DNA from: a virus
Taxonomy: Duplodnaviria; Caudoviricetes
DNA length: 64,000 nucleotides
Virus record (IMG/VR): IMGVR_UViG_3300046171_000271
Strand: one strand, 5' to 3'
Positions 18,293 through 44,076 of the stretch are shown here, piece by piece; within the stretch, counting starts at the first letter, position 1, and each line of letters starts with the position of its first letter. The notes beneath the pieces were generated by a model. The model was not told the origin of the DNA, ran no database searches, and saw only the letters and a program-made list of their open reading frames with translations. The position numbers and the translations under genes are program-made.

Positions 18293-19301
18293 ATGTTTGA
18301 ATACTTTTACCATGAAATTTTAAGACGAACGATCATTGCGTTCGGGAGTCTTTTTAATGGGATTGATATCAAACACTTAGATTCCTCAGGTAATGTATTA
18401 GAGGAAATAAAAGTACCATTAGCGTATGGGCCCTACTCAAAAGTTTTTAGCAAGGTTAGAGCAATCACCAGATCTCAACAAACCAACGTCGATTACTCTT
18501 CCAAGAATGTCCTTTGAATTCACAGGACTTCAGTATGATGGTACAAGAAAAGTTACCACTACTCAAACTTTTAAAACGCAGACTGTAGGTATTGCAACGG
18601 CAATTAGAAAAACTTACATGCCCGTTCCATATAACATGTCATTTGAACTATCAATATTTACTAAGTTAAATGATGATATGCTTCAGATTATTGAACAAAT
18701 TTTGCCGTATTTTCAACCAGCGTATACTTTATCAGTAAATTTAATTGATACAATCGGGGAAAAGAGAGATATTCCAATCGTTATCGAAAATATTACAATG
18801 CAAGATGATTATGAAGGAAATTATAGCACAAGACGCTCTCTTCTTTACACTATAAGATTTACTGCTAAAACTTATCTTTTTGGCCCGGTTGGAGATACTT
18901 CAAAAGCATCCAAAGATCTCATCAAAAGAGTACAAATTGGATATGTACAAGACGATTCTTCTACACCAACCAGAGATCTTACATATACTGTTGTTCCAAG
19001 AGCGACACAAAGTTACACAGGAAATGTTGTTACAAGTTTGGCACAAGATATCGGAACAACAACCAATATCATTCAAGTTACTGATGCAACCAACATTTCC
19101 GAAAATGTATACATCAATATCAACAATGAATCCATATACGTTGATAGAAAAGAAGGCAATTCTCTATTCACGAAGAGAGGACAAGACGGAACAATTGTTG
19201 GATCTCATGTTCGCGGAACTGCAGTCAATCTTATTACTGATGCTGATGATGCCCTTATTGAAGTCGGAGATGACTTTGGATTTGATGGAGCAGTATCATG
19301 A
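18293..19301 (+). CDS. gp15: Tail sheath stabiliser/terminator gp15; one +1 indel near 18430
   Basis: MFEYFYHEILRRTIIAFGSLFN, then VPLAYG/PTQKFLARL across the indel; LPRMSFE and QILPYFQP motifs. Confidence 0.92.
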
Positions 19302-19714
19302 GTTTTGATAGTTTAAACGAAGCATTTGATGTATCAAGTGAAATTGTATCAGAAGAACCTAAGGAGTTAAAACCGGTTCAGAAAGAAGTTGATGCAATAA
19401 AATCTGATACTCGAAAGGATTATGAATATACAAGAGGTAATTTGTATTCATTAATTGAAAAGGGACAAGAAGCAGTTAATGGTATTCTTGAACTGGCACA
19501 AGAAACCGAACAAGCAAGAGCATATGAGGTTGCAGGACAGTTAATTAAAAGCGTCGCTGATGCCACTGATAAACTTTTAGATTTACAAAAAAAATTAAAA
19601 GATGTTGAGGAAGAATCTCAATCAAAAGTCCCAACTAACGTAACAAATGCCCTTTTTGTTGGTTCGACTGCAGATCTCGCTAAATTATTGAAGCAAAACA
19701 AAGAAAATAAATAG
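19298..19714 (+). CDS. gp16: Terminase small subunit gp16
   Basis: DYEYTRGNLYSLIEKGQEA...RAYEVAGQLIKSVAD...NALFVGSTADL. Confidence 0.92.
   Translation: MSFDSLNEAFDVSSEIVSEEPKELKPVQKEVDAIKSDTRKDYEYTRGNLYSLIEKGQEAVNGILELAQETEQARAYEVAGQLIKSVADATDKLLDLQKKLKDVEEESQSKVPTNVTNALFVGSTADLAKLLKQNKENK
19708..19713 (+). promoter_or_regulatory. Late promoter (19728 gene)
   Basis: ATAAATA. Confidence 0.7.
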
Positions 19715-19727
19715 TTAAAAAAGTGTC

Positions 19728-20057
19728 ATGGCAGTACCTGCAGTTAACATAGAAATTGAACAAGGTGCAGATTTTACTTCAACCTTTACTATCACAAATG
19801 GTGATGGTTCTATATTCAACATGTCTAATGCGAGTGCAGTAGCAAAAGTAAAAAAGCATCCTACTGCAGGAACAGCATATACTTTTTCCACTTCTATTGA
19901 ATCATCGACAGGAAAAATTACTGTACAGATGACTGATGAAATTACAGCAACAATGGAAGCAGGAAGATATCTTTATGATATTTTGTTAACTTCTGCGGGT
20001 GGTACAAAAACAAGAGTCATTCAAGGAATGGCATTAGTTACTGCAGGCATATCATAA
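19728..20057 (+). CDS. Small virion structural protein (possible Ig-like adaptor)
   Basis: NIEIEQGADF...GRYLYDILLT...TRVIQG pattern common in cyanomyovirus structural genes; has its own late promoter. Confidence 0.7.
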   Translation: MAVPAVNIEIEQGADFTSTFTITNGDGSIFNMSNASAVAKVKKHPTAGTAYTFSTSIESSTGKITVQMTDEITATMEAGRYLYDILLTSAGGTKTRVIQGMALVTAGIS

Positions 20058-20078: not shown

Positions 20079-20369
20079 ATGCCAGATTACTTAGTAAGAA
20101 GATCAGGAACACAACAATTTACCGTAACTCAGGAGAAAACAGTAGTGGCGGAAAATCTATCAGAACTTGCAGATGTTTCAGTATCCAATCTTCCAGGATC
20201 TGACAAATTTGTATTGACATATAATGCAACGACTGCAAAATTTGAATTAGTACCTGCTGATAATGTTCTTTCTAATGCTGCCGTTGATGCTCAACTTCCA
20301 GATACATTTATTACTCAATTAGAAACTGATCTTGACAACACTATTGATCTTGATGGCGGCTCATTTTAA
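20079..20369 (+). CDS. Small structural/adaptor protein ending in IDLDGGSF
   Basis: 96-aa ORF; LSELADV...VLTYNATTAKF motif; late promoter upstream. Confidence 0.7.
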   Translation: MPDYLVRRSGTQQFTVTQEKTVVAENLSELADVSVSNLPGSDKFVLTYNATTAKFELVPADNVLSNAAVDAQLPDTFITQLETDLDNTIDLDGGSF

Positions 20370-20376
20370 AAATATC

Positions 20377-20382
20377 TAAATA
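20377..20382 (+). promoter_or_regulatory. Late promoter (986-aa gene)
   Basis: CTAAATA, intergenic. Confidence 0.7.
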
Positions 20383-20406
20383 GTAACAAGAAAAATTATA
20401 GGTTAA

Positions 20407-23367
20407 ATGACTTCTCCAGTACTTCAGTTTAAGAGAGGTGCGTTTGCTAATCTACCTGGACTCAGAGTAGGTGAACCTGGCTTTACCACTGACAAATACG
20501 ATCTATATATCGGATTATCGTCAGAAACCTCCACCAACCAGTTTTATGGTTCAGGTAGGTATTGGGGTAGAGAGGATGGCACCAATCCCCTACAGTTCAA
20601 ACTTGTTGATAAGGACGGCTCTAATAGCATTAATTTAAGAGCCCCTGCAACTCTTAGTGGTATAACCACTTATACTTTTCCAGCAACTCCCGGAGCAGGA
20701 AAACTTTTAGTCACAAATGAGTCAGGAGTTCTATCCTGGGCGGATACATTTTCTACTAATTTAAACATCACCGGTATTGTAACTGCCTCCGGTGGATTTA
20801 ATATTGGTATTAATTCTTCTGGAAATGTAATTACAACAGGCCCAGTTCAAAATTTGAACTTCATTGGTGCTGGTAATACATTTGCATATAACGCAGATAC
20901 AGACACAGTAGATATTACTATTGCTGGCGAAGGTTCAGCAATGACATTAGGTTCTCCAACCGATGGAAGTTATAGTGAACCTGGTGCTTTAAATACATTT
21001 ACTAGTTCAACCAAAATTAGTGATAGTATTGATGATTTGAATGAACTCGCTCTGAATATTATAAGAAATACAGTAGTTACTGGATTAGCATTTACTGCGA
21101 ACTCTACTGCTGGCGGTTCTCCCTTTACTGTTACCTTAAATACTTTCCACGAGGGTAATGCAAATAGTTTTGATATTGATTGGGGTGATGGATCTGCACT
21201 AGATACGACATCAGATTCAACTCCATCTCACACATATGATCAAGAAAATGGTGGAGCATTTAGTGTAAGTGTTGTTGCAAAAAATACCTCTGGTGCAGGT
21301 GCAGGACATTCTGTAAGTGCGTCAAGATCTAATTATATTACAGTTTACACTCCTGATCCAGCAGTTTCTTTTAATTTATTCAGAGCATCTTCTGGAGGAA
21401 GCGCACTTACTGGTAATGATTTATATGTAGTTGAAGGACAATCTCTTTACTTAGATAATAATACAACAAATGCAACTCAGGTTGGTTCTGGTGCTACTTA
21501 CACAGTAAATTGGGGAGATGGATCTGCTAACAGTTTCATCTCAAGCAATACAGTTGGAGGTGGTGCAAGCACATCAGCAGATAGATTGCAACACACTTGG
21601 GCGGATGGTACATTAAGTGGTACTGGCAGAGATACTCTGACACTTACGATTAATAAGCACAATCTTGCTAATCCAGGAGTAGTTCCCGTTTCTGGAACTG
21701 TTCAATTAAAGGTTTATGACGATTCCCCTGCAGCACCCGATACTTTAAGTTCCAAAACTCTTAGTAACGTAAGTAGCACTGGTACAAGTCCAAAAGCAGC
21801 TGCTGGATTCACTGACAATACATCCGGAGCATCTGGAATCAGTGCTGGAGATTCTGTTACTCGTGTTACCTCTGGTACTGCAACTGCAGGCCCAATCACA
21901 ACATTTGCATATAATGCTGACTCGGGAACTTTGACAGCAACTGTTAATGGTTCTGCTGATGGACAAAGAGTCTTAACAGGTGGTAACGATAGTGGAACTT
22001 ATACAAGTCTAACTATTGACTCTGAAAGTGATTATAACCTCTTAACTTCTGGAGGTTCATCCACATCATTTGCTAATAGTACCTTCTATCCTGGTTTATA
22101 CAAAGGATTTAAGGCAAGAGTTGAAAAATCAGTAAGTGGACTCTCTGTTGGAACTAATAGTATGCAACTTCAGCATAGCACTGGAGGAAATACTAATACC
22201 GTAGGATTCATGAGAGATGATTTAACATCATCCCCCTCAGTTGATATTTCTAGCGCAACTCTTACGCAAAATAACGCAGGAACATTTAGATATGTTTCGG
22301 GTATTCCATATTATAACTCTGGATCACCAACACTTACTTTATCTGGTGTAGAAATTGATCATCTTGTTGGACAATGTTATACAGATCAAAATGATATTGT
22401 TGAGGTTGATAATGGATCAAATCAAGAAGGAACATCAGCAAGTGCTATAAACAATTCAGGATATACTTACGCACAAATTGATGGATCTACCACTATGCTT
22501 GATAGTGGTATTCCAAAAGTAAATACTGGAACTTCCTCATCATATGCAATTGGAAATCTCACAGTTCCCATCACTTCATCCTCGGTTAGAACCGTTAGAA
22601 GAGTTAAGGTTCGAGCAAAGAATGTAAATGGAACAAGTTCCTATAGTTCTTCTATCGCAACTAACGTTCAAGTTCATACCGCTTCTCAAAGTGGAATTAA
22701 TGAAACTGCTATTGCTGTTTCTGACTCTCTTGGAAATGGAGAATTAACAAACGATGGCGTAAGAATTTTTGATTTTAGCGCACAAACAACTAACACTCCA
22801 GATTATTCTGGTTTTGGAGTTTCTAACTTTTACACAAATAGTCTTTACTCAGAAGCATCTGATCCAGGAGTTTCTGGAACGAAAGAAGCATCGGTTAGAT
22901 TGGGTGTGATTAAGCATGATACCACCGATTATTCAAGTGGATACCTTCCTGCTGGCCCAGATAGAAGTGGTGATACAGGAACTCAATACTTCACATTTGC
23001 TTTCCAAAGAAGAGCAGTCGCTAACTTTGAATTAAGTATCACTAGTTCTGGTGGTATTTCTGGCGGAGTATTCATTGCTGCACCAGGAACAAACATTGAT
23101 AGTGCATCTGGACTCAACGGTTGGTTGAGGGCAGATCAAACTTATGCCGGATCTGGTACACCTGGAAGTGACACTGGAAATGGTGGTAACGGAAGCGATG
23201 GTTGTGCATTTACTTCTGGAGATAGAATACTAACTGGAACTGCGTTAAGTAGCAGTTACACGCTAACTTTAGGTGATCAGAATATGACTGATGCCGATAG
23301 TAATGTCGTCCTCGTAAGAATCGGACTTGCATCTGGCGAGTCCATTACTGCACTCAGCGTATCTTAA
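20407..23367 (+). CDS. 986-aa virion adhesin-like protein with an Mtd-N-like N terminus and two PKD-like domains
   Basis: N-term LQFKRG...LRVGEPGFTTD; IDWGDG...SHTY...FSVSVVAKN and VNWGDG...QHTW motifs; S/T/G-rich. Confidence 0.75.
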   Translation: MTSPVLQFKRGAFANLPGLRVGEPGFTTDKYDLYIGLSSETSTNQFYGSGRYWGREDGTNPLQFKLVDKDGSNSINLRAPATLSGITTYTFPATPGAGKLLVTNESGVLSWADTFSTNLNITGIVTASGGFNIGINSSGNVITTGPVQNLNFIGAGNTFAYNADTDTVDITIAGEGSAMTLGSPTDGSYSEPGALNTFTSSTKISDSIDDLNELALNIIRNTVVTGLAFTANSTAGGSPFTVTLNTFHEGNANSFDIDWGDGSALDTTSDSTPSHTYDQENGGAFSVSVVAKNTSGAGAGHSVSASRSNYITVYTPDPAVSFNLFRASSGGSALTGNDLYVVEGQSLYLDNNTTNATQVGSGATYTVNWGDGSANSFISSNTVGGGASTSADRLQHTWADGTLSGTGRDTLTLTINKHNLANPGVVPVSGTVQLKVYDDSPAAPDTLSSKTLSNVSSTGTSPKAAAGFTDNTSGASGISAGDSVTRVTSGTATAGPITTFAYNADSGTLTATVNGSADGQRVLTGGNDSGTYTSLTIDSESDYNLLTSGGSSTSFANSTFYPGLYKGFKARVEKSVSGLSVGTNSMQLQHSTGGNTNTVGFMRDDLTSSPSVDISSATLTQNNAGTFRYVSGIPYYNSGSPTLTLSGVEIDHLVGQCYTDQNDIVEVDNGSNQEGTSASAINNSGYTYAQIDGSTTMLDSGIPKVNTGTSSSYAIGNLTVPITSSSVRTVRRVKVRAKNVNGTSSYSSSIATNVQVHTASQSGINETAIAVSDSLGNGELTNDGVRIFDFSAQTTNTPDYSGFGVSNFYTNSLYSEASDPGVSGTKEASVRLGVIKHDTTDYSSGYLPAGPDRSGDTGTQYFTFAFQRRAVANFELSITSSGGISGGVFIAAPGTNIDSASGLNGWLRADQTYAGSGTPGSDTGNGGNGSDGCAFTSGDRILTGTALSSSYTLTLGDQNMTDADSNVVLVRIGLASGESITALSVS

Positions 23368-23382
23368 GGGGAGGATAAACAA

Positions 23383-24750
23383 ATGGCAATTTCAGATACC
23401 CAAAAAGTTGATTTTCTCTGGAAGAAAATCGCGTTTGCTAAAGCAAAAACAGATACAAACGCTAATAAAAAAGGCCCCAACGAAGCAAATCCAAGTCCTC
23501 TTCTTCTTAGAGGAGACAAAGTTTGGAGAGAGTCTTCATCAATCAATACAACTATTCCTGCAGTTTCCAATGCATATGTTGGAGTTACAACTTCTGGCGC
23601 TCCAGTTGAATTAACTGCTGATGGTTCATCAACAACTAATAGAACTTGGAAAACTGGTTTAACTGACTGGATTCCTCCAGAACTTGGTTCTACATATCAG
23701 GTAAAAGTTTACATTCATACATCAAGCAATGCAAGCACTGCTGTCGCAAGTGGAACTCAAGTATTTGAAACTGGTTCTGGAAATGATGATGAATGGTATT
23801 TTGACTATTCAGCAGGTATCCTTCACTTTATTGGATCAAATTTACCAAATGGAGTAAACTTTACTGGAAAGAGTGTTTACTTAACTGGTGCAAGATATAT
23901 TGGACAGTTTGGTATTCCCGGTGCTGCTGGTGGATCTGGATCTAATTTAGCTGGTATCAATACCTTTACTGATACTACAAATAATACTTTAGGTGATGAA
24001 AATACAGGTACTATACAGGTTGATGGTGGTGTTGGTATCGCTAAAAACCTCACTGTAAAGGAAAATCTTCATGTTGGTGGATACTCTGAGTTTGTCGGAG
24101 TTGTAACATTTAAAGGAGGAACTGTAAATCTTGGTGATGGAACAACTGATAATATTAATGTTGGTGGTGAGTTTACATCTAATCTTGTTCCAAATAGTGA
24201 TGCTCTCTATAATCTTGGAATTTCTACACAAAGATGGAGAGATGGACTATTCTCCAATGATGTTGTTTCTGCCGCTGTAAAAACTGGTATTATCAGTGCA
24301 ACGGACGGAAAGTCTGCAATCACTATTGCAACAGAAACTGGAAATGTTGGAATTTCTAGTGATCTAACAGTTAATGGAAACCTGTTTATTTCTGGTTCAC
24401 AAACTCAGGTTAATACAAATACGTTAACTGTTGAAGATTCATTAGTTGAATTAGGACTTGTAGATGGTTCAGCTCCTGGTTCTGATCTTAATATTGATCT
24501 AGGACTTATTTTAAATTATTATACAGGATCTGCTAAAAAAGCAGCGATTTATTGGGATGACTCTACATCAAGAATTACTATTGGTTCTGATGTTAGTGAA
24601 ACAAGTAGTGTAATAACTGCTACTACGTATGCTCCTTTAGAAATCGGACAACTTTGGGTTAATGATTGCGCTGGACAATCTCAAGTGATTTCTTGTACTG
24701 GAACTGAAAGGTTCCTTGAAAATATTACAATTGACGGTGGCTCCTTCTAA
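23383..24750 (+). CDS. 455-aa fibre-like structural protein ending in ITIDGGSF
   Basis: MAISDTQKVDFLWKK start; GGVGIAKNL, LVPNSDALYNLG and LTVNGNL...TLTVEDSLVELG fibre motifs. Confidence 0.75.
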   Translation: MAISDTQKVDFLWKKIAFAKAKTDTNANKKGPNEANPSPLLLRGDKVWRESSSINTTIPAVSNAYVGVTTSGAPVELTADGSSTTNRTWKTGLTDWIPPELGSTYQVKVYIHTSSNASTAVASGTQVFETGSGNDDEWYFDYSAGILHFIGSNLPNGVNFTGKSVYLTGARYIGQFGIPGAAGGSGSNLAGINTFTDTTNNTLGDENTGTIQVDGGVGIAKNLTVKENLHVGGYSEFVGVVTFKGGTVNLGDGTTDNINVGGEFTSNLVPNSDALYNLGISTQRWRDGLFSNDVVSAAVKTGIISATDGKSAITIATETGNVGISSDLTVNGNLFISGSQTQVNTNTLTVEDSLVELGLVDGSAPGSDLNIDLGLILNYYTGSAKKAAIYWDDSTSRITIGSDVSETSSVITATTYAPLEIGQLWVNDCAGQSQVISCTGTERFLENITIDGGSF

Positions 24751-24938
24751 TGAATGAAGATGATTATAAAAGTTTGATTGCAACTTATCAAAGAAAATCT
24801 ATGGATTTATTTGCACAATTAGTTGTTGCTGAAACGAAAGTAGAGGTATTGAACACTCAATTAAGGGAAGCGAAATCGCGTATTCAACAACTTGAAGAAG
24901 AAATAAAAAGTATTTCAGCGAACAAAGACTACGCATAA
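24750..24938 (+). CDS. Small coiled-coil protein (possible fibre assembly helper)
   Basis: 62 aa with heptad pattern (VEVLNTQLREAKSRIQQLEEEIK); overlaps the upstream stop. Confidence 0.65.
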   Translation: MNEDDYKSLIATYQRKSMDLFAQLVVAETKVEVLNTQLREAKSRIQQLEEEIKSISANKDYA

Positions 24939-24941
24939 ATA
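24936..24941 (+). promoter_or_regulatory. Late promoter (436-aa gene)
   Basis: ATAAATA overlapping the upstream stop. Confidence 0.7.
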
Positions 24942-24998
24942 TACTTAATGCCTGTTATATAACAGGATTTTTAGGTTTATACCATATGCGAGGGATGA

Positions 24999-26309
24999 AT
25001 GGCTGATCCTAATATTAGGATAAAACGTTCAGCTGTTCCTGGAAAAAAACCAACGGTTGAACAACTCCCGTTGGGGGAACTTGGACTTAATACTTACGAC
25101 GCTCAGTTATTCGCGCAAGTGAATACTAGTGGCGTTGGAATAGGCACTACGATCATATCTCTGACTCCTTGGAAAGAGACTTTTGGTGCGGAGTCAATAT
25201 TCTACAATAATTCTGTTGGTATTGGCACAGATAATGCCACAGAAAATCTTACTGTTTTAGGAAATGCATCTGTAAGTGCAGGAGTAACAGTAGGGGGAAA
25301 TCTTTCAGCAGAAAGTGATTTATATGTAGATAATATTCGTCGATTTACTGATAATAGCACTAATACAAAGATCTCTCTAGAAAGTGGCAGAGTAAAGATC
25401 TTTGCTGGTAATGGAACTGTTCCAAAAATTAATGTAAATGGCGGAGTTGGTATCAATACTAGTATTAACATTACTGGTATTGCAACATTTAAACAAACTG
25501 TTAACATTGAAGGTGATCTCAATGTTACTGGTGATATTGTTTATGATGAAATTAGTGGTAGAAATTTAAATATAGCGGGAATATCCACATTTGATGGAAT
25601 TATAAATTTCGGCGCATCAAGTGCAATTAGTATCGGGGGAACAACAGGAACTAATGGGCAGTATTTACAGTCTACAGGTACTGGAGTTACTTGGGCATCA
25701 GCTTCATCAATAAGAAGTGATAATACTTATACTGCTACCACAGGGCAGACAACAATCACTCAAGCATATACTGCTGGACTGATTGATGTTTTTGTAAATG
25801 GAGTAAGACTTCATTCTTCAGAATATGTTGCTTCAAATGGAACATCTATTGTCCTTAATGAAGCATTATTTGGTGGCGAATCAATAGATGTTATTTCATA
25901 TACTGCATCTGGTTCTGTAAGTAGTGTTCCAGAAAATGACACATTGGACGCAGTTACGGATAGAGGTAATGACACAACAAATGATATAAACGTAGGAATA
26001 TTAACTTCTAAATCAGGTGTCTATGTAGATGCAATAAGAAGATATACTGATAATAGTACGAATACAAAAATAACTCTTGAGTCTGGCAGACTCAAATTAT
26101 TTGCCGGAAATGGAACAACGCCAAAAATTAATATAAATGGTGGTGTTGGTATTAATACCAGTTTGAACGTAGTTGGTATTTCTACTTTTAATCAAGATGT
26201 TAATGTTGGATCTGATCAATCTACAGGTATAGTTTTAACATCACCAAACGGAACCAAGTATAGACTAATCGTCGATAATTTGGGCAATTTATCGACAACA
26301 GCAGTGTAG
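24999..26309 (+). CDS. 436-aa tail-fibre/adaptor protein
   Basis: N-term IRIKRS...LPLGELGLNTYD; duplicated ~54-aa segment; YTATTGQTT...DVFVNGVRL domain; C-term LTSPNGTKYRLIVDNLGNLSTT. Confidence 0.8.
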   Translation: MADPNIRIKRSAVPGKKPTVEQLPLGELGLNTYDAQLFAQVNTSGVGIGTTIISLTPWKETFGAESIFYNNSVGIGTDNATENLTVLGNASVSAGVTVGGNLSAESDLYVDNIRRFTDNSTNTKISLESGRVKIFAGNGTVPKINVNGGVGINTSINITGIATFKQTVNIEGDLNVTGDIVYDEISGRNLNIAGISTFDGIINFGASSAISIGGTTGTNGQYLQSTGTGVTWASASSIRSDNTYTATTGQTTITQAYTAGLIDVFVNGVRLHSSEYVASNGTSIVLNEALFGGESIDVISYTASGSVSSVPENDTLDAVTDRGNDTTNDINVGILTSKSGVYVDAIRRYTDNSTNTKITLESGRLKLFAGNGTTPKININGGVGINTSLNVVGISTFNQDVNVGSDQSTGIVLTSPNGTKYRLIVDNLGNLSTTAV

Positions 26310-42414: not shown

Positions 42415-44076
42415 ATGCCTGATAATGTATATCTTGGTAATCCTAATTTAAAAAAAGCGAATACGCCGATTGAGTTTACTGAAGAACAAATCATTGAGTT
42501 TGTTCAATGTCAACGCGATCCGGTTTATTTTGCTAATAAGTATGTAAAGATTGTTAGTTTGGATGAAGGACTTGTATCATTCAAACCATATCGCTTTCAA
42601 GAAAAGTTAATCAACAACTTTCATGAGAATAGATTTAACATCTGCAAAATGCCGCGACAGACTGGCAAAAGTACTACAGTTGTCTCTTATCTTCTTCATT
42701 ATGCGATTTTCAATGACAGCGTTAACATTGGCATACTTGCTAACAAAGCAGCAACAGCTAGGGAACTTTTAGGCAGATTACAAACTGCATATGAGAATCT
42801 ACCTAAATGGATGCAGCAGGGTATAATGGTATGGAACAAAGGTTCTTTGGAGTTAGAGAATGGCAGTAAAATACTGGCAGCTTCTACGTCTGCAAGTGCT
42901 GTCCGAGGTATGTCGTTTAACATCCTCTTTCTCGACGAGTTCGCGTTTGTCCCAAATCACATTGCTGACTCGTTCTTTGCCTCTGTGTATCCTACTATTA
43001 CTTCTGGTAAAAACACCAAAGTAATTATTGTATCCACCCCTCATGGTATGAATCACTTCTACCGAATGTGGAGTGATGCTGAAAAAGGAAAGAATGAATA
43101 TATTCCAACTGATGTTCACTGGAGTGAAGTTCCAGGCAGAGATGATGCATGGAAAGAACAAACTATCGCAAACACATCAGAACAACAATTTAAGATTGAG
43201 TTTGAGTGTGAGTTCTTAGGATCGATTGATACACTGATTGCTGCAAGTAAATTAAAATCTTTAGTGTATGATAATCCTTTAAAATCAAATGCAGGATTGG
43301 ATGTATATGAAGAACCACAAAAAAATCATGATTATTTAATTACAGTTGATGTAGCAAGAGGTGTGGGTGAAGATTATTCTGCATTTATTTGTGCTGATAT
43401 TACATCTTTCCCACATAAAATTGTTGCAAAGTATAAAAATAATGATATCAAACCGATGTTATTCCCTAACATCATATATGAAGTAGCAAAGAATTATAAT
43501 AGTGCATATATTCTTTGTGAAGTAAATGATGTAGGTGATCAAGTAGCATCACTTCTTCATTATGATTTAGAATATCAAAATGTTCTTATGTGCTCCATGA
43601 GAGGTAGAGCAGGACAAGTCGTCGGACAAGGTTTTTCTGGTAAGAAGACTCAATTAGGCGTAAAAATGTCCAAGACTGTTAAGAAGGTTGGGGCACTGAA
43701 CCTTAAGACAATGATTGAAGAAAATAAACTTCTTTTCAATGATTTAGATATTATATCAGAACTTACAACATTTATTTCAAAAAATAATTCATTTGAAGCA
43801 GAAGATGGTTGTCATGATGACTTAGGCAATGTGTCTTGTCATCTATGCTTGGTTAGTCGCTCAGGATTATTTTAAAGAACTAACCGATCAAGATATTAGA
43901 AAGAGACTTTACGAGGAGCAAAAAAATCAAATTGAGCAAGACATGGCACCCTTTCGGATTCATGGATGATGGACTTGGTGAAGGATAGTTTTACAGATGA
44001 TGATGGCGAAAGATGGTTTAATACATCAGAGTATGGTGAAACCGCTGGCGGTATGGATTATATGTGGAAATATTAA
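42415..44076 (+). CDS. gp17: Terminase large subunit gp17; indels near 43825, 43950 and 43982
   Basis: MPDNVYLGNPNLK, Walker A PRQTGKST, LFLDEFAFVP, IIVSTPHG, DVARG nuclease motif; HDDL/AMCLVIYAWL resumes after the shift and ends MDYMWKY at 44076. Confidence 0.95.

What the first reader, a model, noticed from the sequence alone, without database searches (positions are those of the whole stretch)
20079..25150. Plug-and-socket pattern II: C-terminal DGGSF tails precede genes with Mtd-N-like KR...GE N termini
Seen: two unrelated proteins end in the same tail (96 aa ...TIDLDGGSF; 455 aa ...NITIDGGSF). The next large gene in each case opens with a related domain (MTSPVLQFKRG...LRVGEPGFTTD; MADPNIRIKRS...LPLGELGLNTYD). 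Established: such N termini resemble the capping/attachment domain of Bordetella phage Mtd. Inference: DGGSF is a C-terminal anchor for this domain. Together with pattern I, this would chain most genes of the gp16-gp17 hyperplastic region into one assembly line whose gene order mirrors structural order, and would let modules be swapped freely.
Basis: partly seen in the sequence, partly recalled or inferred. Interest (0 to 1): 0.7.

Follow-up and report, generated by a model that had tools for sequence, protein, structure and literature searches.

The report
Phage fibre plug-and-socket joint (gp36–gp37 type)
[quoted passage not shown] This is the same kind of joint that links gp36 to gp37 in the long tail fibre of phage T4, and many uncultured phages reuse it to chain fibres.

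Summary
The 96-aa and 455-aa proteins share nothing but a C-terminal ...DGGSF. The next fibre genes (986 aa and 436 aa) are the only two in the window that open with a KR...GE N-terminal domain.

**Homology.** The 986-aa protein passes Pfam Mtd_N. The 436-aa type is homologous to it (hhalign 97%) and to the N-terminus of T4 gp37, the region that gp36's C-terminal end binds. gp36 proteins end in the same kind of tail (DFGYY, IDFGTF, LDYGEF).

**Co-fold.** A 3+3 model put residues 87-96 of the 96-aa protein against residues 3-17 of the 986-aa protein. The score was 0.86; the best control scored 0.52.

**Survey.** DNA encoding IDGGxF-stop ends an open frame in 112 of 123 viral-contig matches, against 10 of 59 for a reversed-peptide control. 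The socket domain starts within 200 nt downstream in 68 of 108 cases and is absent from all control loci. Tail proteins fall into 31 body clusters, and some 84-134-aa proteins are little more than socket plus plug.

**Context.** An LtfC-like collar gene sits upstream.

**Verdict.** It is a known joint type on new proteins, now with a readable sequence signature. No solved structure turned up, and binding is untested.

The parts
19728..20057 (+). 109-aa LtfC-like beta-sandwich protein. It is the probable collar or anchor on which the fibre chain starts.
   Evidence: Pfam LtfC scores E 1.5e-3, below the curated cut-off. PHROG 3304 'L-shaped tail fiber protein assembly' scores E 7.6e-24. For the AF2 model (pLDDT 61.5), the top Foldseek hits are chains in T5 tail tip 7qg9 and DT57C baseplate 8hqz, at E 4e-4 to 6.5e-4. 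A gene of this type lies directly upstream of small plug-bearing adaptors in 17 of 42 viral loci.
20079..20369 (+). 96-aa adaptor protein
   Evidence: It is conserved in 31 viral contigs, always between the LtfC-like gene and the Mtd_N fibre. Invariant C-terminal residues are D90, D92, G94 and F96. It has no Pfam family.
20337..20366 (+). Plug 1: the last 10 residues (NTIDLDGGSF) of the 96-aa adaptor
   Evidence: Residues 87-96 are the only part of the adaptor at the predicted interface with the 986-aa N-domain. They are disordered in the monomer model.
20407..23367 (+). 986-aa fibre protein. Its C-terminus carries no plug.
   Evidence: ORF. PHROG 8578 covers residues 440-985. In relatives the same N-module sits on 427-654-aa proteins that do end in a plug.
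20407..20541 (+). Socket 1: the Mtd_N-type N-terminal domain (about residues 1-45) of the 986-aa fibre
   Evidence: Pfam PF18454 matches residues 7-36 at E 1.7e-6, 28.3 bits against a cut-off of 26.3. Residues 3-12 and 15-17 contact the plug in the co-fold.
23383..24750 (+). 455-aa fibre protein that carries plug 2
   Evidence: Its C-terminal 150 aa are 57-60% identical to the C-termini of the Mtd_N fibres of phages S-B05 and DSL-LC02. Its N-terminal part matches PHROG 9417.
24721..24747 (+). Plug 2: the last 9 residues (NITIDGGSF) of the 455-aa protein
   Evidence: The tail is conserved as NITID[GAC]G[ST]F in all relatives. It is the same motif class as the gp36 C-termini of T4, JSE and Acj133.
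24750..24938 (+). 62-aa coiled-coil protein lying between plug 2 and socket 2. Its role is unknown; it may be an assembly helper or part of the joint.
   Evidence: A gene of this kind sits at this position in all relatives and recurs between plug and socket genes in unrelated viral loci. It has no informative family.
24999..26309 (+). 436-aa fibre protein
   Evidence: ORF. Only the first ~45 residues are shared with the 524-528-aa proteins at this position in relatives.
24999..25133 (+). Socket 2: the gp37-N-type (class B) N-terminal domain of the 436-aa fibre
   Evidence: The N-domain HMM scores E 1.6e-11 here, against 1.5e-15 for T4 gp37. Class B against class A (Mtd_N type) gives hhalign probability 97.1%, E 6.7e-11. 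tblastn finds gp37 'long tail fiber distal subunit' genes of T4-like coliphages.

Best explanation
The two DGGSF tails are C-terminal plugs, and the KR...GE N-terminal domains of the next fibre proteins are trimeric sockets.

**Proposed mechanism (inferred).** The last ~10 residues of each chain of the upstream trimer lie as an added, parallel beta-strand against the first strand (residues ~3-12) of the downstream protein's N-domain. The conserved Lys-Arg contacts the Gly-Gly-x-Phe end. I infer that the free C-terminal carboxylate is involved.

**Proposed wiring in this phage (inferred from gene order).**
- An LtfC-like collar protein (109 aa) holds the 96-aa adaptor.
- The adaptor's plug holds the 986-aa fibre.
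- The 455-aa protein's plug holds the 436-aa fibre.
- According to an earlier, untested note, the 436-aa fibre carries the 'pattern I' socket for the giant fibres.

**Relation to known biology.** The joint is homologous to the gp36 C-terminus / gp37 N-terminus junction of the T4 long tail fibre. Probably it is also homologous to the Bbp9-Mtd junction of Bordetella phage BPP-1.

**Status of each step.**
- Shown here: the motifs, their conservation, the homology of the sockets, and the genomic association.
- Predicted only: physical binding and the strand geometry.
- Inferred: the wiring order.
For: **Co-fold.** Three copies of the 986-aa N-terminus (1-120) were folded with three copies of the 96-aa protein.
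- ipSAE was 0.86 (runs 0.78, 0.86, 0.86). The best of three controls scored 0.52.
- The tool reports that 58 of 80 solved complexes and 2 of 110 mismatched pairs reach this mark.
- The runs agreed in at least 100% of contacts, and partner pLDDT was at least 76.
- The interface is residues 87-96 against residues 3-12 and 15-17.
- I found no like complex in the PDB by sequence, so a pass from memory is unlikely.

**Synteny.** The order LtfC-like / adaptor with D-x-D-[GA]-G-x-F-COOH / Mtd_N fibre ending NITID[GAC]G[ST]F / small coiled-coil gene / class-B socket fibre recurs across the 31 IMG/VR relatives wherever the contig reaches that far, and in S-B05; DSL-LC02 has it only as far as the coiled-coil gene.

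**Survey selected only on DNA encoding I-D-G-G-x-F-stop.**
- 112 of 123 matches end an open frame of at least 50 codons, against 10 of 59 for the reversed-peptide control (Fisher p 1e-23).
- The socket HMM starts within 200 nt downstream in 68 of 108 cases. It has no hit in the 59 control loci.
- Binomial p is 4e-37 per gene and 2e-7 per cluster.
- There are 31 tail-body clusters, 16 downstream-body clusters and 27 distinct combinations.

**Joints not selected by the pattern.** Of 59 socket genes, about 40 are preceded by a [DNS][GAC]G.[FYW] or DLG[GSA][IVLF] end.

**Chains.**
- 52 of 103 socket proteins also end in a plug.
- Ten proteins of 84-134 aa are little more than socket plus plug.
- Chains of up to five links occur, for example in L140.

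**T4 precedent.**
- gp37 of T4 and of JSE match the socket HMM at 1.5e-15 and 6e-16.
- gp36 ends in ..QDFGYY (T4)..IDFGTF (JSE) and ..LDYGEF (Acj133).
- The literature says that trimeric gp36 binds the N-terminal region of gp37 (PMC3004832) and that the C-terminal end of gp36 binds the N-terminal end of gp37 (PMC9603124).

**Position of the elements.** The socket sits at the N-terminus in 184 of 185 hits and in 148 of the best 150 of 27,231 representative proteins.
Against: - No experiment or solved structure shows the contact. The co-fold is a model, and its calibration does not cover 3+3 jobs run with user alignments.
- Only the first joint was co-folded. The second joint (455 aa to 436 aa) rests on analogy, and a 62-aa gene lies between the two genes.
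- The two plugs in this phage are nearly identical, so nothing tested here explains how each would choose its own socket.
- 25 of 108 tail genes have no socket gene within 3 kb downstream. Some are followed by the gp13 neck gene or by a 'PFKWD' protein.
- Some socket genes have no plug-bearing neighbour: S-SKS1, RsoM2USA, the class-B socket protein of DSL-LC02, and the Bacillus SPO1-like phages.
- Many surveyed loci are related, so per-gene counts overstate independence.
Confidence: 0.75

Rival explanations
1. Plug and socket do bind, but the plug is generic and the wiring does not follow gene order. Either DGGSF tail could occupy either socket. Which fibre sits where would then be set by other contacts, by assembly order, or by helpers such as the 62-aa coiled-coil protein.
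For: - The two plugs of the window share the last five residues.
- In the survey, the same IDGGTF tail precedes class-A, class-B and Mtd-like sockets.
- In DSL-LC02 the plug-bearing fibre and the class-B socket protein are about 115 kb apart, so pairing in trans must occur.
Against: - The residues before the plug differ consistently between the two joints: LDN.ID[LVM]D against NITID.
- A DLG[GSA][IVLF] tail subtype precedes only the Mtd-like QFRRGT socket subtype, in 4 of 4 loci plus BPP-1. That points to some specificity.
- Immediate adjacency holds in about two thirds of joints.
Confidence: 0.15
2. The tail is not a plug for the next fibre. It serves its own protein, as a trimerisation cap or a handle for a chaperone, or it binds a common hub such as the LtfC-like collar. 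Adjacency to socket genes would then only reflect clustering of fibre genes.
For: - LtfC-like genes lie next to many tail-bearing proteins (38 hits in test loci against 1 in control loci).
- In MQM1 the 71-aa tail protein is directly next to the LtfC-like gene and not next to the Mtd_N gene.
- A small coiled-coil gene often follows the tail gene.
Against: - The tail is disordered in the monomer model and ordered only at the interface with the socket.
- It occurs on 31 unrelated bodies, including links far from any LtfC-like gene and proteins that are little more than socket plus plug.
- In DT57C, LtfC binds N-terminal strands of LtfA, not a C-terminus (PMC10713586).
- Clustering of fibre genes alone does not predict that the very next start codon opens a socket in 63% of cases.
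Confidence: 0.08
3. Chance resemblance of two short C-termini and two short N-termini.
For: The shared elements are short: 5-9 residues for the tails and about 40 residues for the N-termini.
Against: - The tail residues are invariant across relatives at 56-88% identity.
- The socket HMM has no hit in the control loci.
Confidence: 0.01

Closest known systems
T4 long tail fibre distal half: junction of the gp36 C-terminus with the gp37 N-terminus
   Same: - The socket is the same domain. The HMM scores E 1.5e-15 on T4 gp37 and 1.6e-11 on the 436-aa protein.
- gp36 ends in the same hydrophobic-D-x-G-x-aromatic-COOH tail.
- Both partners are trimers encoded by neighbouring genes in assembly order.
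- gp36C-gp37N binding is established (PMC3004832, PMC9603124).
   Different: - The plug-bearing proteins here are not gp36 homologues. They have no PF03903 hit, hhalign probability is 0.2%, and BLAST finds nothing.
- T4 has one such joint, and gp35 and gp34 precede it. Here there are two joints in series, an LtfC-like gene at the head of the module, and no gp35-like gene nearby.
- T-even tails have F or Y where the cyanophage tails have the first G.
Bordetella phage BPP-1: tail fibre Bbp9 followed by Mtd (Pfam Mtd_N, PDB 1yu0)
   Same: - The 986-aa protein passes Pfam Mtd_N.
- Bbp9, encoded directly upstream of mtd, ends ..ADLGGIA. Tails of this DLG[GSA][IVLF] type precede Mtd-like QFRRGT sockets in 4 of 4 viral loci.
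- The Mtd beta-prism is presumed to attach to the tail fibre (PMC10743442).
   Different: - BPP-1 is a podovirus with a DGR-diversified lectin tip.
- Its tail lacks the terminal aromatic residue.
- My socket HMM does not score Mtd itself.
- The Bbp9-Mtd contact has not been shown structurally in anything I could find.
T5 / DT57C LtfC collar with the LtfA fibre anchor
   Same: - The 109-aa protein resembles LtfC/p132.
- In DT57C the fibre is held by donating short beta-strands to its partner (PMC10713586). The co-fold suggests the same principle for the plug.
   Different: - In DT57C it is the N-terminus of the fibre that inserts into the collar.
- Whether the 96-aa adaptor binds the 109-aa protein was not tested here.
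- The Pfam score is below the curated cut-off.
KP32-type branching of receptor-binding proteins (T4gp10-like domain plus N-terminal peptide), which is 'pattern I' of this window
   Different: The polarity is opposite. There the peptide is N-terminal on the downstream protein and the domain is on the upstream protein. Here the peptide is C-terminal on the upstream protein and the domain is N-terminal on the downstream protein. The domain families are unrelated.

Membership tests
Pfam Mtd_N (PF18454) | Match to the family HMM above the curated cut-off, at the N-terminus | tested here: met
   986-aa protein: residues 7-36, E 1.7e-6, 28.3 bits against a cut-off of 26.3.
Pfam Mtd_N (PF18454) | The same match for the 436-aa protein | tested here: not met
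   Pfam gives no hit at E up to 10. However, class B against class A scores hhalign 97.1%, E 6.7e-11. 16 of 47 mixed N-domains hit Mtd_N and no other family. It is homologous but lies outside the current Pfam model.
T4 gp37 N-terminal attachment domain | Sequence homology to the first ~45 residues of gp37, at the extreme N-terminus of a fibre protein | tested here: met
   One HMM scores T4 gp37 at 1.5e-15, JSE gp37 at 6e-16, the 436-aa protein at 1.6e-11 and the 986-aa protein at 5.6e-7. tblastn of the 436-aa N-terminus finds gp37 genes of many Straboviridae.
T4 gp37 N-terminal attachment domain | Binds the C-terminal end of the trimer encoded upstream | tested here: inconclusive
   The co-fold supports this for the 96-aa / 986-aa pair (score 0.86 against best control 0.52). 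The 455-aa / 436-aa pair was not tested, and there is no experiment.
T4 gp36 family (Pfam PF03903) | Homology of the plug-bearing protein to gp36 | tested here: not met
   The 96-aa and 455-aa proteins have no PF03903 hit. hhalign of A1 against T4 gp36 gives probability 0.2%. BLASTP of the 455-aa protein against JSE gp36 finds nothing. Only the terminal motif is shared.
LtfC / p132 collar proteins (Pfam PF23926) | Match to the family HMM above the cut-off | tested here: not met
   The 109-aa protein scores E 1.5e-3, 19.5 bits against a cut-off of 27.
LtfC / p132 collar proteins (Pfam PF23926) | LtfC-like fold and annotation by other libraries | tested here: met
   PHROG 3304 scores E 7.6e-24. 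The Foldseek top hits are chains in 7qg9 (T5 tail tip) and 8hqz (DT57C baseplate), TMq 0.53-0.59, from a model of only moderate confidence.
LtfC / p132 collar proteins (Pfam PF23926) | Forms a ring on the tail that holds the fibre's N-terminal strands | not testable with these tools

The most novel reading that the evidence does not exclude
Phage fibres carry a sequence-readable connector code. A strictly C-terminal plug (hydrophobic-D-x-G-x-aromatic-COOH, with a DLGG-type variant) pairs with one strictly N-terminal socket superfamily. That superfamily unites T4 gp37-N, BPP-1 Mtd_N and tens of thousands of metagenomic proteins. With this code the wiring of multi-fibre host-recognition machines, including socket-plus-plug extension links and five-link chains, could be read from the genome. 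It would also explain how receptor-binding modules move between otherwise unrelated phages without losing their attachment.
Probability: 0.45. Interest if true: 0.75.

Novelty: new variant of a known kind. Interest (0 to 1): 0.55.

Why it matters
**Gap in current knowledge.** Fibre-to-fibre attachment is the least resolved part of phage host-recognition machines. In the PDB copy available here I found no entry for gp36 or for the gp37 N-terminus. A 2022 review states that no atomic structure of a whole long tail fibre exists (PMC9603124).

**What a confirmed signature would give.**
- Connectivity of fibre genes could be annotated in uncultured phages.
- BPP-1 Mtd, T4 gp37 and cyanophage fibres would share one attachment mechanism.
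- The hyperplastic fibre region of cyanophages, which can swap long receptor-binding bodies while keeping roughly 10-45-residue connectors, would have an explanation.
- The boundaries to respect when fibre modules are exchanged between laboratory phages would be defined.

**Scale.** The socket family has 27,231 representative clusters at 50% identity.

Tried and rejected
- A near-DNA search of the phage collection found nothing, so the window is a new cyanophage.
- My first literature search was swamped by 'mtDNA' matches. Searches for Bbp9/Mtd and for gp36/gp37 found no paper that describes the plug motif or an atomic model of the joint.
- The window has no whole-genome handle.
- PDB sequence searches found no solved relative of the joint. 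I used the socket profiles A2, A3, A4 and A5, T4 gp36, and gp37 residues 1-200.
I therefore fixed the codons GAT, TTT and TAA, which biases the sample towards AT-rich phages and towards I-D-G-G.
- The AF2 monomer of the 96-aa protein is of low confidence (pLDDT 49.7). I used it only to show that the tail is not packed.
- I considered that the plug proteins might be gp36 homologues. I rejected this.
- I considered that the 62-aa protein might be an annotated chaperone. No family or annotated relative turned up.
- The Staphylococcus hits to the Mtd_N query (E 0.4) proved spurious.
- Earlier notes of this scan hold nothing on this motif.
- The second joint and the crossed pairs could not be co-folded, because only one complex job was available.
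Full report
**What is there.**
The window is a T4-like cyanomyovirus with no close DNA relative among deposited phages. Between gp16 (19298-19714) and gp17 (42415-43875) lie these genes, all on the + strand:
- a 109-aa gene (19728-20057);
- a 96-aa gene (20079-20369) ending ...TIDLDGGSF;
- a 986-aa gene (20407-23367);
- a 455-aa gene (23383-24750) ending ...NITIDGGSF;
- a 62-aa coiled-coil gene (24750-24938);
- a 436-aa gene (24999-26309);
- the giant fibre genes.

The two tail-bearing proteins are alike only in their last 19 residues. Pfam places Mtd_N on residues 7-36 of the 986-aa protein, above the curated cut-off. It finds nothing on the 436-aa N-terminus. The exception is that a small gene separates the 455-aa gene from the 436-aa gene.

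**Conservation.**
The closest named relatives are the Kyanoviridae phages S-B05, S-B43 and DSL-LC02. I also retrieved 31 IMG/VR contigs. Wherever a contig reaches far enough they keep the same order:
- an LtfC-like protein;
- an adaptor ending D-x-D-[GA]-G-x-F;
- an Mtd_N fibre;
- a small coiled-coil protein;
- a second fibre opening KIKRS...GEL.LN..D.

DSL-LC02 keeps the order only as far as the coiled-coil gene, which gp13 then follows. Its class-B fibre lies about 115 kb away.

In the adaptor family D90, D92, G94 and F96 are invariant at 56-88% identity.

In most relatives the Mtd_N domain and the NITID[GAC]G[ST]F tail sit on one protein of 427-654 aa. In the window, and in some relatives, this protein is replaced by two: about 985 aa with the socket, plus about 455-532 aa with the tail.

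The 436-aa protein shares only its first ~45 residues with the 524-528-aa proteins at the same position in relatives. Most of those match Pfam DUF1565 and one matches a Pel9A-like beta-helix model. Both ends therefore behave as portable modules.

**Are the two N-termini one family?**
With shallow profiles the match was weak (hhalign 55%). With diverse profiles from viral contigs it is strong. Class A (the Mtd_N type, KRG...GEPgf.TD) against class B (KRS...GELA.N..D) gives 97.1%, E 6.7e-11. Of 47 mixed N-domains, 16 hit Pfam Mtd_N and none hits another family.

An HMM built only from viral-contig sequences finds exactly the two N-termini in this window. It finds none in 59 control loci. The family is large: 27,231 representative clusters at E up to 0.001. 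In 148 of the best 150 the domain starts at residue 1.

**The known precedent.**
tblastn of the 436-aa N-terminus finds the 'long tail fiber distal subunit' (gp37) of many T4-like coliphages. T4 gp37 and JSE gp37 score 1.5e-15 and 6e-16 with the HMM. The gp36 proteins encoded just upstream end in ..QDFGYY (T4)..IDFGTF (JSE) and ..LDYGEF (Acinetobacter phage 133).

It is established that trimeric gp36 binds the N-terminal region of gp37 (PMC3004832). It is also established that it is the C-terminal end of gp36 that does so (PMC9603124).

The bodies of the window's plug proteins are not gp36 homologues.

I found no PDB entry for gp36, for the gp37 N-terminus, or for any relative of the socket profiles. 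A 2026 T4 preprint models the distal rod only at low resolution.

In BPP-1, Bbp9 is encoded directly upstream of mtd and ends ..ADLGGIA. The Mtd beta-prism is only 'presumed' to attach to the fibre (PMC10743442).

**Direct test of the contact.**
A 3+3 co-fold of residues 1-120 of the 986-aa protein with the whole 96-aa protein gave ipSAE 0.86 (runs 0.78, 0.86, 0.86). The best of three controls scored 0.52. The tool reports that 58 of 80 solved complexes and 2 of 110 mismatched pairs reach this mark. The runs agreed in at least 100% of contacts, and partner pLDDT was at least 76.

The tool warns that its calibration covers neither user alignments nor multi-copy jobs.

The confident interface is exactly the plug (residues 87-96) against residues 3-12 and 15-17 of the socket. 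The residue pairs run in register (5-7 with 90-92, 9-11 with 93-96), which implies a parallel added strand.

Alone, the 96-aa protein folds poorly (pLDDT 49.7) and its last five residues are unstructured. The tail is therefore not buried in its own fold.

**Is the association general, or only inherited synteny?**
I scanned IMG/VR for DNA encoding I-D-G-G-x-F-stop and, as a control, for the reversed peptide F-x-G-G-D-I-stop.
- The test pattern hit the 120-locus limit. The control gave 59 loci in all.
- 112 of 123 test matches end an open frame of at least 50 codons, against 10 of 59 control matches.
- The socket HMM begins within 200 nt downstream of the tail's stop in 68 of 108 evaluable cases. 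It begins within 700 nt in 6 more and within 3 kb in 9 more. The binomial p against the within-locus frequency is 4e-37.
- Tail-protein bodies form 31 clusters, and 15 of the 30 evaluable clusters show adjacency (p 2e-7). Downstream bodies form 16 clusters. Together they make 27 distinct combinations.
- Among 59 socket genes in these loci that were not selected by the pattern, about 40 follow a gene ending [DNS][GAC]G.[FYW] or DLG[GSA][IVLF]. About six more follow a small charged or coiled-coil gene, as at the window's second joint.
- All four DLG-type tails precede Mtd-like QFRRGT sockets, as in BPP-1.
- Half of the complete socket proteins (52 of 103) themselves end in a plug.
- Ten proteins of 84-134 aa are little more than socket plus plug.
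- Loci such as L140 string an LtfC-like gene and five plug-to-socket links in a row before gp13.

The motif is overwhelmingly C-terminal: 159 terminal against 41 internal occurrences in test loci, and 0 against 9 in control loci. The socket is N-terminal in 184 of 185 hits.

**The head of the chain.**
The 109-aa protein resembles LtfC/p132 in three ways:
- Pfam scores it below the cut-off.
- PHROG scores it at E 7.6e-24.
- The Foldseek top hits are chains in the T5 tail tip (7qg9) and the DT57C baseplate (8hqz), from a moderate-confidence model.

In DT57C, LtfC is a dodecameric collar that holds fibre LtfA by beta-strand donation (PMC10713586).

LtfC-like genes occur 38 times in the test loci and once in the control loci. 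They lie directly upstream of small plug-bearing adaptors in 17 of 42 evaluable cases. The Aeromonas podophage MQM1 has a 71-aa ..NIDGGTF protein, an LtfC-like protein and an Mtd_N protein within 2.5 kb.

That the 96-aa adaptor binds the 109-aa protein is an inference. I did not test it.

**Limits.**
- Binding is predicted, not shown.
- The second joint was not co-folded.
- The two plugs are almost identical, so specificity is unexplained.
- The 986-aa to 455-aa link is unexplained.
- Adjacency fails in a sizeable minority of cases. Tail genes can be followed by gp13 or by 'PFKWD' proteins. Socket genes can lack a plug neighbour, as in S-SKS1, RsoM2USA, DSL-LC02 and the Bacillus SPO1-like phages.
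- The survey pattern fixes codons and the I-D-G-G core, and many loci are related to one another.

**Verdict.**
It is not a new kind of device. It is the T4 gp36-gp37 type of joint carried on unrelated proteins, doubled in this phage, and probably rooted on an LtfC-like collar.

As far as I could search, four things are undescribed:
- the explicit plug motif;
- the homology of gp37-N with Mtd_N;
- the proteins that are little more than socket plus plug;
- the breadth of reuse.

Noticed in passing
window 18293-19301: The gp15 gene is split into a 74-aa ORF and a 291-aa ORF. The cause is a single extra T at 18434 (GGGCCCTACTC against GGGCCC-ACTC), relative to the related IMG/VR contig L003, whose 96-aa adaptor is identical and where gp15 is one 335-aa ORF. 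This is either a sequencing error or a real frameshift.
   Followed up: partly
window 24750-24938: A 62-aa coiled-coil gene overlaps the stop of the 455-aa gene by one base. A small gene of this kind recurs between plug and socket genes in relatives and in unrelated viral loci (L052, L087, L103, L109, L112, L115). In S-B05 it ends ..DGGTFE. It has no family or annotation. It could be a fibre-assembly helper or part of the joint.
   Followed up: partly
window 20407-24750; L018, L023, L026: The 986-aa and 455-aa proteins together occupy the place of a single 427-654-aa fibre (socket plus plug) in most relatives. How the 986-aa C-terminus (..ITALSVS) and the 455-aa N-terminus (MAISDTQKVDFLWKK..) relate to each other is unknown. 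In L008 the 455-like and 62-like ORFs read as one 517-aa ORF, which may be an assembly error.
   Followed up: no
window 24999-26309 vs L004:7657-9237: The 436-aa protein shares only ~45 N-terminal residues with the 524-528-aa proteins at the same position in relatives. Most of those match Pfam DUF1565 and one matches a Pel9A-like beta-helix model. This looks like a clean swap of the body behind a constant socket.
   Followed up: partly
L140:3048-3631; L109 and L112 (same arrangement); L034 (BPP-1 bbp9/mtd): A second plug flavour, ..EDLG[GS][IV]x, always precedes the Mtd-like QFRRGT..F.G..GE socket subtype (4 of 4 loci). BPP-1 Bbp9 ends ..ADLGGIA just before Mtd. This hints at plug-socket subtypes.
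   Followed up: partly
L041, L089, L110, L121, L149, L159: In six loci the IDGGxF tail gene is followed not by a socket gene but by a ~94-112-aa protein with PFKWD/W-rich repeats, and then by a 'MYKLFTDK...LEGASL' protein. This may be an alternative partner.
   Followed up: no
L074, L077, L108, L142, L150; L001 (DSL-LC02): Some plug-ending fibres lie directly upstream of the gp13 neck gene, the position of wac (fibritin) in T4. Their socket partner, if any, is encoded elsewhere.
   Followed up: no
P0002, P0003, P0008: Some proteins carry a second, internal copy of the socket domain. It is immediately preceded by a plug-like TID[GA]/TISG segment, which may be a natural fusion of plug and socket.
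   Followed up: no
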